64,000 nt of DNA. It comes from Escherichia coli (lineage in GTDB: Bacteria; Pseudomonadota; Gammaproteobacteria; Enterobacterales; Enterobacteriaceae). Shown here piece by piece: positions 51,201 through 54,200 of this stretch. Location: the NCBI RefSeq assembly GCF_044647545.1, contig NZ_CP172818.1; one strand, given 5' to 3'. The position numbers are program-made. Each line of letters opens with the position of its first letter. Positions within the stretch are counted from its first letter, which is position 1.

Positions 51201-54200
51201 TCATGGTCGCACAAGACATAGCAGTTAAAGCTCACGTTAACGACCAGTTTGGCAACCCGGTGACGCATCAACCCGCGACATTCAGTGCAGCGCCATCCTC
51301 GCAAATGATCATCAGCCAGAATACGGTCTCTACTAATACGCAGGGAGTAGCCGAGGTCACCATGACGCCTGAAAGAAACGGCTCGTATACTGTAAAAGCA
51401 TCCCTAGCGAATGGAGCTTCACTTGAGAAACAACTGGAGGCTATTGATGAAAAACTGACACTCACGTCCAGTCCGCTTATCGGTGTCAATGCTCCTAAAG
51501 GCGCTACTCTGACGGCAACGCTAACCTCTGCAAATGGCACTCCAGTGGAGGGTCAGGTCATCAACTTTAGCGTAACGCTAGAAGGTGCGACGTTAAGTGG
51601 CGGAAAAGTGAGAACCAACTCTTCAGGTCAGGCTCCAGTCGTTCTGACCAGCAATAAAGTCGGTACATATACGGTGACTGCATCGTTCCATAACGGCGTC
51701 ACAATACAGACACAGACAACCGTGAAGGTTACTGGCAACCCAAGCACCGCACATGTTGCTAGCTTTATCGCTGATCCGTCGACTATCGCCGCCACCAACA
51801 GTGATTTAAGTACCTTAAAGGCAACGGTTGAGGATGGCAGTGGTAACCTGATCGAAGGTCTCACTGTGTACTTCGCCTTAAAAAGCGGCTCCACCACATT
51901 AACGTCATTAACAGCAGTGACCGATCAAAACGGAATCGCGACAACAAGCGTGAAAGGAGCGATAACGGGGAGCGTCACTGTAAGCACAGTCACAAGCGCA
52001 GGTGGAATGCAAACAGTAGATATATCGCTAGTGGCAGTCCCAGCAGACGCCTCGCAGTCCATCCTTAAGAACAACCAGTCATCACTGAAAGGGGACTTTA
52101 CCGATAGTGCTGAGCTACATCTTGTTCTGCACGATATATCAGGCAATCCGATCAAAGTTTCTGAAGGGATGGAATTTGTGCAATCAGGTACAAACGTGCC
52201 CTATATGAAAATTAGCGCAATTGATTACAGTCAAAATATCAACGGTGATTACAAAGCTACTGTTACAGGAGACGGAGAGGGTATCGCAACGCTGATCCCC
52301 GTATTGAATGGTGTTCATCAGGCGGGCCTGAGTACCACGATAGAATTCATTAGCGCGGAAACCAGACCAATGACCGGTACAGTGTCAGTGAATGGTGCAA
52401 ACCTACCGACAGCTTCATTCCCTTCGCAGGGATTTACCGGGGCGTATTATCAGTTGAATAATGACAACTTTGCACCAGGAAAAACGGCGGCTGATTATTC
52501 GTTTTCAAGCTCGGCCTCCTGGGTAGGCGTTGATGCTACTGGTAAAGTGACATTCAAAAATGACGGTGATAGCAATACTGTAATAATCACAGCGTCCCCA
52601 AGATCCGGTGGGCTACCAAACCCCCCCCCCTCCTGAATCGCGTTCGGTGTGACTATGATCATTTTCGGTGAGTATTGCTTTGATCCAAAGGCTGGTTTTC
52701 TGTGATGATTGACCAGCCTCAGAGTATTGATGGCACCACCGTTCATAACAGATCGGCATTACTATGCATAAGTACTGCCTCAAATTCTCGCCAAAACACT
52801 TTTTAATGCCTTTGCGAATTCATCCAGACTTATATTGTCAATTTTTTGCCCAACGGCGACTGACTCCGAAACATCGGCCATTGCGGGCCATCGCGTTTTG
52901 TAATCAGCATAAATTGCAACAACAGGGGTATTATAGGCGCTTGCCATATGTAATATTGAGGTGTCAGGAGTTATTGCCATATAAGCATCTTTTATAATTG
53001 CTGCTGAACGTTTAATCGAGGGTGATAAGGATAAACGGTAGACATTATTATAACAATCCACTAATGCCCTGGCTTTATCTTCCCCTTTGGGTCCATAAAC
53101 GATCACTATTGGCATATCTGTTTCACTTTGAATTTTTGCTATTAGATTTTCTGCAATCGATAATGAAAATGTACGTTCCTGCGAGCTACCTTCTAAATTG
53201 AGCGCAATGTAAGATCCTAACGATCGCATTTCCTCGCGTACCTCATCGAGTACATCATCGCTTAATGGCAATTCATATATTGACCTGACTGCCGGAAAAC
53301 CCGCCTCACGCATCATAAATGCCCATGTCATGGGTACAGGAGCCCGGAGATTCTGATCCATCCGGGACGCGTTCTTACACAAAGGGGAATAGCACTTCAT
53401 GGTTAAACCGACGACCTGGAAATTCGTTTTTGCTTTCAACTGACTGATAAATATCATCGTTTTCAGGTTCTTTTTACGCATCGCCTCTATACAAAGATCC
53501 GGCGTACCGTATTGCAGTGTTATGTTCTTCGCTAAATCTTTTATTTCTTTTAATGTTGCGTGATCCTGCATAGTCATTGTGACTAATGTTAATTTATTCT
53601 GTTCAAGTTTGAGCGCATTAAAGACTTCTAAATTAATTGTCGACGTAACAATTAATAGATGCTTAATTTTATGCAATTCAAGCGCCCGAATAACAGGAAA
53701 GATGGCCATAGCATCGCCAATCTGATCGGGAATATGTATGACAACAAAGTCTGTTTTTTCAATATTAAAATTATAAGCTTTATAATCGTAGTAACTAAAT
53801 GCAATACGTCTCAACAATGATACTAAAAACATAACTAACCTCGCCTCCCTACTGGTTATAATGCAATGCAGTCTATCAGAATCATCAGGGTGCAATTTTG
53901 TGCATATGCGGACTTTTATGTTTCATATCTCGAACCTGTGGGCCCTCTGCTTAATCCTTAAACAACACCAGCAACTCCTGCGCTTTCATCTTCCATCGAA
54001 TTTTTCATGTTGCCGTTAATCAGCCATAAAATCATTTGCAGATTCGCTCTGTCGAGGTAGTCTCATAAGGTTCGTTTATAGATCGACGGCAATGTGAGTT
54101 ACCTTTTCCATACTAATTATAAAAAGACAGTACAAACAGGATCATTATGGACTCCACGCTCATCTCCACTCGTCCCGATGAAGGGACGCTTTCGTTAAGT

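What the first reader, a model, noticed from the sequence alone, without database searches (positions are those of the whole stretch)
52610..52640. C10 homopolymer at the 3' end of yeeJ
Ten consecutive cytosines (52621..52630) sit just before the stop codon; all three frames terminate within 40 nt after the tract. As far as I know, runs of nine or more are uncommon in E. coli chromosomes. It could be a slipped-strand hotspot that sets the adhesin C-terminus, a deletion scar next to the convergent yeeL gene, or an assembly artefact.
Basis: seen in the sequence. Interest (0 to 1): 0.3.

Follow-up and report, generated by a model that had tools for sequence, protein, structure and literature searches.

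The report
Private C-run on dead yeeJ end
The ten-cytosine run is really in the sequence, but it sits on an old deletion scar at the end of an already broken adhesin gene, is seen in no other E. coli genome, and is most likely a sequencing or assembly error rather than a genetic switch.

Summary
The C10 run at 52621..52630 is present, followed by TCC and TGA. It is the only G/C run longer than 6 in the 64 kb.

It does not set an adhesin C-terminus. yeeJ here is a multi-hit pseudogene:
- a -1 frameshift at 50630/50631
- a 312-bp Big-domain deletion
- an extra -1 at 50953
- loss of the last ~112 codons (the C-type lectin tip), the stop codon and the terminator

The run lies exactly on that 3' deletion joint. 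The same deletion is in about 2,066 of 5,426 complete E. coli genomes. In every sampled case the joint has the same length and reads GGTGCTATTTACCAAAC-AGTT-CCTCC, with no homopolymer.

The window is otherwise base-identical to ST405-like genomes for 13.5 kb around the site. It differs only by an 18-bp scramble (delT, delATTT, AGTT>C7) and one 1-bp deletion. The window type was found in no complete genome, and two JGI metagenome scans were also negative.

The window carries several other private, indel-rich scrambles: in fliC, downstream of zinT, and two 1-bp deletions. Natural variation at this locus is about 66 SNPs to 1 indel.

Most likely this is a low-quality consensus patch (about 0.6). 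Otherwise it is a neutral private mutation (about 0.3). Phase variation is very unlikely. Interest is low.

The parts
52621..52630 (+). C10 homopolymer (the finding)
   Evidence: Read directly. It is the only G/C run of 7 or more in the 64 kb.
52611..52630 (+). Private scrambled patch covering the deletion joint. The window reads GG-GCTA----CCAAAC-CCCCCCC-CC where all relatives read GGTGCTATTTACCAAAC-AGTT-CC.
   Evidence: Alignment to FDAARGOS_497: all differing columns in 52611..52628, with flanks identical. The same canonical joint is seen in L001, L003, L006 and L008-L017.
52634..52636 (+). TGA that closes the last yeeJ reading-frame fragment, in the former yeeJ-yeeL intergenic DNA
46201..52636 (+). 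yeeJ pseudogene (inverse autotransporter: IAT_beta barrel, Big_1/Invasin_D3 repeats, Invasin_D4). K-12 aa 1-1480 lie in frame 2, 1480-1588 in frame 1 and 1693-2245 in frame 3. Residues 2246-2358 are absent.
   Evidence: tblastn of K-12 YeeJ; Pfam scan
50630..50631 (+). -1 frameshift (ACAGCAAC>ACAGC-AC), shared with FDAARGOS_497 and BHUCD01. It leads to the stop at 50659-50661.
50953..50954 (+). Joint of a 312-bp (104-codon) repeat-mediated Big-domain deletion, shared with L001 and L006. A 1-bp deletion (AAA>AA) private to the window sits at the same spot.
51059..52633 (+). Last open fragment of yeeJ (525 codons; Big_1, Invasin_D3, Invasin_D4). It ends ...SPRSGGLPNPPPS and has no native start.
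52780..53832 (-). Convergent yeeL / glycosyltransferase family 9 gene, intact (350 aa). Its stop codon is about 150 bp from the tract.
   Evidence: annotation of relatives
52690..52718 (.). Conserved inverted repeat GGCTGGT...ACCAGCC between the tract and yeeL. It is unaffected by the patch. A role as a possible yeeL terminator is inferred only.
   Evidence: Sequence, fold, conserved in all aligned strains. The terminator scan did not call it.

Best explanation
The C10 run is not a working genetic element. It is part of an 18-bp anomaly found only in this sequence, laid over an old and widespread deletion joint at the 3' end of a yeeJ gene that was already inactivated upstream. That deletion removed the C-type lectin tip, the stop codon and the terminator.

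The most likely origin is a low-quality consensus or assembly patch in the source assembly. In that case the true sequence would be the canonical GGTGCTATTTACCAAACAGTTCCTCC.

Shown here:
- the position on the joint
- the pseudogene state of yeeJ
- the privacy of the patch
- the length invariance of the joint in other strains
- the co-occurrence of similar private scrambles elsewhere in the window

Inferred: that these scrambles are errors rather than real mutations.
For: (a) The tract sits exactly between the left breakpoint (…ACCAAAC) and the right breakpoint (CCTCCTGAATCG…) of a deletion of 442, 450 or 762 bp relative to the K-12, 33F4 and AST262 alleles.

(b) The same deletion occurs in 2,066 of 5,426 complete genomes. 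All 37 full-length rows sampled across the ranking match 131/131 bp at 97.7-100% identity, so there is no length change and no homopolymer. All 14 sequenced examples inspected read ACCAAACAGTTCC.

(c) No complete genome matches the window across the tract. The best full-length identity over 181 bp is 93.5%. The window-type joint, with any filler of 0-24 nt, was absent from one-per-species genomes. Two metagenome scans were also negative.

(d) The window is identical to FDAARGOS_497 over 50492-64000 except for this patch and one 1-bp deletion. It is 100.0% identical over 20000-44000. The private branch is therefore extremely short, yet the patch needs three or more separate changes within 18 bp.

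(e) The window has other private scrambles of the same style:
- Ten patches in fliC and its terminator, five of them with indels, break fliC into 241-aa and 134-aa ORFs. None is shared by the 233 genomes with that fliC allele.
- A 68-to-28 bp shredded stretch lies after the zinT terminator. The best match elsewhere is 81%.
- A private delC at 13388 and a private delA at 50953.

(f) Of the 15 private events, 10 contain indels and 1 is a lone SNP. Natural differences between the window and VE-V11-M at this locus are about 66 SNPs to 1 indel. Fisher's exact test gives p about 1e-10.

(g) The YeeJ paper itself warns that frameshifts in this repetitive gene may be sequencing or assembly artefacts (PMC5595812).
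Against: - No reads are available, so the error is inferred and not shown.
- 37 kb of the window is a perfect match to relatives, so the assembly is not generally poor.
- A C7 replacing AGTT is not a classic error signature of any one platform, and I could not identify the platform or the source record.
- Some fliC patches are same-length multi-base replacements, which are odd for simple base-calling errors.
- The source strain has no near-clonal relative with the same architecture (no HPI, long yeeJ) in the collection. 'Private' therefore rests on one lineage.
- The metagenome scans had no positive control.
Confidence: 0.6

Rival explanations
1. The tract is real. A single complex mutation (small deletions plus a short insertion or expansion) hit the pre-existing scar in this strain's recent ancestry. 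It persists because the site is selectively neutral: the dead end of a pseudogene in former intergenic DNA. If so it may well be length-unstable, but nothing depends on it.
For: The site is unconstrained, being a pseudogene with a nonsense tail only. C-terminal and non-coding repeats are under weak selection (PMC3315296). The flanks are high quality and identical to relatives. The overall architecture of the locus is natural, because VE-V11-M has it too.
Against: It needs delT, delATTT and AGTT>C7 within 18 bp on a branch with zero SNPs in 37 kb. No local template for a C-run exists in the window. The same genome would then need about 14 further clustered private events, including a shredded fliC. 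The joint is not seen in any other genome or in the metagenome scans.
Confidence: 0.31
2. The tract is a slipped-strand contingency switch. Changes in C-run length alter the C-terminus, or the expression, of the YeeJ adhesin.
For: G/C runs of 9 or more are the classic substrate of slipped-strand mispairing (established knowledge; PMC3315296, PMC11868660). The gene family is a surface adhesin (PMC5595812).
Against: The reading frame from the yeeJ start ends at 50659-61, 2 kb upstream, and two further lesions follow. The functional lectin tip is deleted. C8 to C12 only exchange tails of 5-17 junk residues. The tract is at the extreme 3' end, not the 5' end or the promoter. It is absent from all other strains, so it is neither conserved nor polymorphic. 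E. coli avoids SSRs, and the phase-variation examples cited for it in the review consulted are invertible elements and methylation.
Confidence: 0.02
3. The C-run is the original filler of the deletion event itself. On this view the window's deletion is an independent event from the common one.
For: The tract lies exactly between the two breakpoints.
Against: Both breakpoints are identical to the common deletion (…ACCAAAC | CCTCCTGAATCG…). The surrounding 13.5 kb is base-identical to genomes that carry the canonical joint. VE-V11-M, which has the same long-yeeJ architecture, has the canonical joint. Independent recurrence at the same two bases is very unlikely.
Confidence: 0.03

Closest known systems
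Truncated or decayed yeeJ alleles of E. coli (the yeeJ remnant next to the HPI/asnT locus in B2, D and F strains; frameshifted yeeJ noted by Martinez-Gil et al. 2017, PMC5595812)
   Same: Same locus, same 3' deletion removing the C-type lectin domain, same -1 frameshift at 50630/31 and same 312-bp Big-domain deletion as in ST405-like genomes and VE-V11-M.
   Different: The window keeps the 5' and middle parts of yeeJ and lacks the HPI. It alone has the C10 patch at the joint and an extra delA at 50953.
Homopolymeric-tract contingency loci (poly-G/C switches of Neisseria, Haemophilus, Campylobacter, Helicobacter, Bordetella)
   Same: A G/C run of 9 or more inside or next to a surface-protein reading frame. 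Such a run would be mutable by slipped-strand mispairing if it is real.
   Different: It lies at the 3' end of a dead gene, switches nothing, is not conserved, and no length polymorphism is observable. E. coli in general avoids SSRs.
Consensus or assembly errors in repetitive adhesin genes (e.g. the upaH misassembly in CFT073 cited in PMC5595812)
   Same: An anomaly confined to one assembly, in a repetitive adhesin locus, accompanied by unexplained frameshifts.
   Different: Here the patch is in unique sequence at a deletion joint, not inside the repeats. The error is inferred from comparative evidence only.

Membership tests
SSR contingency locus (slipped-strand phase variation) | The tract is placed so that a length change switches an otherwise intact gene on or off (5' coding region or promoter spacer) | tested here: not met
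   The tract is one codon before the stop. The upstream frame is broken at 50630/31 and 50953, with a stop at 50659-61.
SSR contingency locus (slipped-strand phase variation) | Tract length is polymorphic among strains or within populations | tested here: not met
   The tract is absent from 5,426 complete genomes. The homologous joint is length-invariant (131/131 bp) in all 37 full-length rows sampled from the 2,066 genomes that carry it. Within-population variation is not testable without reads.
SSR contingency locus (slipped-strand phase variation) | At least one tract length yields a full-length functional product | tested here: not met
   C8 to C12 all give 5-17 residue nonsense tails. The lectin domain is deleted.
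Deletion scar at the yeeJ 3' end | Flanks collinear with intact alleles, and the intervening segment present in other strains | tested here: met
   442, 450 or 762 bp is present in K-12, 33F4 and AST262 respectively and absent here.
Deletion scar at the yeeJ 3' end | The joint sequence equals that of other carriers of the same deletion | tested here: not met
   Carriers read ACCAAAC-AGTT-CCTCC; the window reads ACCAAAC-CCCCCCC-CCTCC and has two upstream deletions.
Sequencing/assembly artefact | Confined to one assembly, with close relatives agreeing with one another | tested here: met
   The listed top hits (40, 15) carry identical alleles that differ from the window. The three pattern scans for the window-type joint found nothing.
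Sequencing/assembly artefact | Other anomalies of the same style in the same assembly, with an error-like spectrum (indel-rich, clustered) | tested here: met
   Private scrambles in fliC, in the zinT 3' region, and at 13388 and 50953. Ten of 15 private events contain indels, against about 1 in 67 for natural variation.
Sequencing/assembly artefact | Reads or an independent resequencing contradict the consensus | not testable with these tools
   No reads are available and the source record was not identified.
Inverse autotransporter adhesin YeeJ (functional member) | Continuous ORF with LysM/beta-barrel, Big repeats and a C-terminal C-type lectin domain | tested here: not met
   The gene is split over three frames and Intimin_C is absent. 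IAT_beta, Big_1, Invasin_D3 and Invasin_D4 are present.

The most novel reading that the evidence does not exclude
The C-run and the other private scrambles (fliC, zinT 3' region, 1-bp deletions) are all real. Together they would record a localised, clustered, indel-rich mutational process, such as error-prone repair around DNA breaks, in a natural ST405-like isolate. That process would have created de novo a C10 tract of a length E. coli normally purges.
Probability: 0.08. Interest if true: 0.4.

Novelty: not a real feature. Interest (0 to 1): 0.05.

Why it matters
It matters little biologically. The tract cannot control YeeJ, because the gene is dead and its adhesive tip is gone.

The practical value is as a quality flag. 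This sequence contains several private, indel-rich patches: the yeeJ joint, fliC and the zinT 3' region. These would create false pseudogenes, such as an apparently non-motile fliC, and false 'contingency loci' if taken at face value.

The comparison also documents that the yeeJ 3' deletion removing the lectin domain is an old allele with a fixed joint length, carried by about 38% of complete E. coli genomes.

Tried and rejected
- **Source search by protein.** The window's exact yeeL protein is on record in more than 10,000 blocks, so it is far too common to identify the source. It did supply ten more canonical joints.
- **Source search by fliC fragment.** The exact 241-aa private fliC fragment is not on record, so the source was not identified.
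- **Loose joint pattern on genome contigs.** It gave neither a positive control nor information on other Escherichia species.
- **Reference-guided chimera hypothesis.** I considered that ST405 reads had been laid on a BHUCD01-like reference. In favour: the segments missing from ST405 genomes are 0 SNPs from BHUCD01, and patches sit at or near structural joints. Against: the zinT patch is not derived from K-12 or BHUCD01, and VE-V11-M shows the architecture occurs naturally. This is left open.
- **RNA element or terminator at the tract.** Rejected: no Rfam family hit, fold z-score of -1.4, and no terminator or promoter call at the tract.
- **Protein-database search for the ...LPNPPPS tail.** Not run, because clustering at 90% identity would hide a 10-residue tail difference.

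Full report
**Observation**

The + strand reads ...CCGGTGGGCTACCAAA CCCCCCCCCC TCC TGA. Ten C occupy 52621..52630 and the TGA lies at 52634-36. This closes ORF 51059..52636. The other two frames stop at 52650-52 and 52669-71, that is 22 and 41 nt after the tract.

The run is a clear outlier:
- The window's G/C runs number 34 of length 5, 2 of length 6, none of 7-9, and this single run of 10.
- Dinucleotide-preserving shuffles give 0.13 C9/G9 matches per window.
- An i.i.d. model expects 0.07 runs of 10 or more per 64 kb.

**The gene it sits in**

The ORF belongs to yeeJ, which lies between asnT and the convergent yeeL/GT9 gene, followed by shiA and amn. tblastn of K-12 YeeJ (2358 aa) maps onto the window as follows:

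| K-12 residues | Window coordinates | Frame |
|---|---|---|
| 1-1480 | 46201-50631 | 2 |
| 1480-1588 | 50628-50954 | 1 |
| 1693-2245 | 50954-52612 | 3 |
| 2246-2358 | absent | - |

The lesions are:
- A -1 frameshift at 50630/31, shared with FDAARGOS_497 and BHUCD01. It ends the native frame at the stop 50659-61.
- A 312-bp deletion of one Big domain between direct repeats, shared with FDAARGOS_497 and VE-V11-M.
- A further 1-bp deletion at 50953 (AAA>AA), private to the window.

Pfam finds IAT_beta, Big_1 and Invasin_D3 in the first fragment. In the last fragment it finds Big_1, Invasin_D3 and Invasin_D4, the latter ending about 10 residues before the tract. The K-12 segment that is missing here carries the Intimin_C (C-type lectin) match. 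This agrees with the published YeeJ architecture, in which the last 103 aa form a C-type lectin domain (PMC5595812). No adhesin C-terminus is left to be set.

**The tract lies on a deletion joint**

I aligned the window against three intact alleles: K-12, 33F4 and AST262. The window lacks everything from just after ...TATTTACCAAAC to just before CC(G/T)CC(A/T)GAATCGCG. That is 442, 450 or 762 bp depending on the allele. The loss covers about 112 codons, the stop codon and the hairpin-plus-T-run terminator downstream.

The same deletion is common. A 131-bp probe across the canonical joint finds 2,066 of 5,426 complete genomes at 80% coverage or more. These include strains of serotypes O25:H4, O104:H4 and O111:H21. 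In all 37 full-length rows sampled evenly down the ranking, the match is exactly 131 bp long at 97.7-100% identity.

All 14 carrier loci read directly show CCGGTGGTGCTATTTACCAAACAGTTCC(T/G)C(C/A)TGAATCG. The scar is therefore old, length-stable in the strains examined, and free of any homopolymer.

**The C-run is private to this sequence**

The window reads CCGGTGG-GCTA----CCAAAC-CCCCCCC-CCTCCTGAATCG. Relative to the canonical joint this is a T deleted, ATTT deleted, and AGTT replaced by seven C.

- Over 50492-64000 the window is otherwise base-identical to FDAARGOS_497. The only other difference is the 1-bp deletion at 50953.
- Over 20000-44000 it is 100.0% identical to that genome and at least eleven others.
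- No complete genome aligns through the tract at more than 93.5% over 181 bp.
- A pattern allowing any filler of 0-24 nt after the window-specific left flank found nothing in one-genome-per-species contigs or in JGI metagenomes.
- A second metagenome pattern anchored on the C-run was also negative. No positive control could be run for the metagenome scans.

**Other private anomalies in the same window**

Against the same clade, the window's remaining differences are as follows.

- **fliC and its terminator, 4097-5275.** Ten patches of clustered substitutions, 1-bp deletions and a 6-bp deletion. They split fliC into ORFs of 241 and 134 aa. One removes a G from the otherwise perfect terminator stem. 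All 233 genomes with this fliC allele are identical to each other here and lack every patch.
- **44227-44254, just after the zinT terminator.** Here 68 bp of the clade sequence appear as 28 bp, as if many bases had been dropped. The best full-length match among 5,426 genomes is 81%.
- **Single-site differences.** A delC at 13388 and one SNP at 18212.

Counting clusters as events, 10 of 15 private events contain indels and only one is a lone SNP. By contrast, the ordinary differences between the window and VE-V11-M over 44257-56000 are about 66 SNPs and 1 indel. Fisher's exact test gives p about 1e-10.

A branch short enough to leave 37 kb without a single SNP cannot plausibly have accumulated this many complex events. 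A recombination import is also unlikely: the imported allele would be expected to appear somewhere among 5,426 genomes, and it would not be expected to carry out-of-frame indels.

**Interpretation**

The best-supported reading is that the C10 is part of a low-quality consensus patch in the source assembly (confidence about 0.6).

What is shown:
- the position on the joint
- the pseudogene state of yeeJ
- the privacy of the patch
- the length invariance of the joint elsewhere
- the error-like spectrum of the window's private differences

What is inferred is the error itself. I have no reads, could not identify the record, and cannot name a platform whose typical error turns AGTT into C7.

The main rival (about 0.3) is a real, neutral, complex private mutation at an unconstrained site. 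In that case the run would probably be length-unstable, but nothing would depend on it. C8 to C12 merely exchange nonsense tails of 5-17 residues on a fragment that has no native start.

A contingency switch is effectively excluded (about 0.02):
- the tract is at the wrong end of the gene
- the gene is dead
- the tract is not conserved
- it is not polymorphic

In addition, E. coli as a species avoids SSRs (PMC3315296). The phase-variation examples cited for it in the review consulted are invertible promoters and methylation (PMC11868660).

The idea that the C-run is the original filler of an independent deletion is also unlikely (about 0.03). Both breakpoints and 13.5 kb of flank are identical to canonical-joint genomes.

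**Other checks**

- No Rfam family overlaps the region.
- The 211-nt stretch does not fold better than shuffles, z = -1.4.
- No promoter-like or terminator-like site was called at the tract.
- The conserved inverted repeat at 52690-52718 between the tract and yeeL is unaffected.
- yeeL itself is intact (350 aa, Glyco_transf_9). Its exact protein is on record in more than 10,000 blocks of the public collection.

**A side hypothesis left open**

The two yeeJ segments absent from ST405-like genomes (45889-46475 and 46799-50491) differ by 0 SNPs from BHUCD01, while the flanks differ by 0.4-2%. Three private patches also lie at or near structural-variant joints. This would fit a reference-guided chimera.

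Two points count against it. The zinT patch is not derived from BHUCD01 or K-12. VE-V11-M naturally has the same HPI-free, long-yeeJ architecture. This needs the reads to resolve.

**Verdict**

The 'adhesin C-terminus switch' reading is rejected. The 'deletion scar' reading is right about the place but not about the tract. The 'assembly artefact' reading is the most probable. Novelty: not a real feature. Interest: 0.05.

Noticed in passing
window 4097-5784 (fliC, minus strand, and its terminator): fliC is split into 241-aa and 134-aa ORFs by ten private patches of substitutions and small deletions. All 233 genomes with this fliC allele have an intact, mutually identical sequence here. The patches look like consensus errors; if real, the strain would be non-motile.
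   Followed up: partly
window 44227-44254 (just downstream of the zinT terminator): A 68-bp stretch of the clade sequence is represented by a 28-bp 'shredded' version private to the window. The best full-length match in 5,426 genomes is 81%.
   Followed up: partly
window 45812-46475 (asnT to the yeeJ start): There is no High Pathogenicity Island here. The otherwise near-identical ST405-like genomes (e.g. FDAARGOS_497) carry the 31-kb ybt/irp/fyuA island at this tRNA-Asn and have lost window 45889-46475 and 46799-50491 of yeeJ. VE-V11-M shares the window's HPI-free architecture.
   Followed up: partly
window 45889-50491: The yeeJ segments that ST405-like genomes lack are 0 SNPs from strain BHUCD01, although the flanks differ from BHUCD01 by 0.4-2%. 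This points either to a recently shared yeeJ allele or to reference-derived sequence in the assembly.
   Followed up: partly
window 13388 and 50953: Two private single-base deletions: delC in the yedL-DUF5503 spacer, and AAA>AA exactly at the 312-bp Big-domain deletion joint of yeeJ. One lone private SNP lies at 18212, in fliH by position.
   Followed up: no
window 52780-53832 (minus strand): The yeeL/GT9 glycosyltransferase gene is intact here (350 aa) and its exact protein is extremely common in public assemblies. The K-12 copy is annotated as a pseudogene with an internal stop.
   Followed up: partly
window about 60470-61430 (cbl): In FDAARGOS_497, which is base-identical to the window here, cbl is annotated as frameshifted. 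The window therefore probably carries the same cbl pseudogene.
   Followed up: no
window 27383-27469 (-), 35805-35894 (+), 44734-44820 (-), 45812-45884, 58535-58607, 60356-60428, 62771-62843: Expected small RNAs and tRNAs are present: DsrA, RseX, one tRNA-Ser, and four identical tRNA-Asn copies (asnT/W/U/V) whose flanks form short repeats.
   Followed up: no
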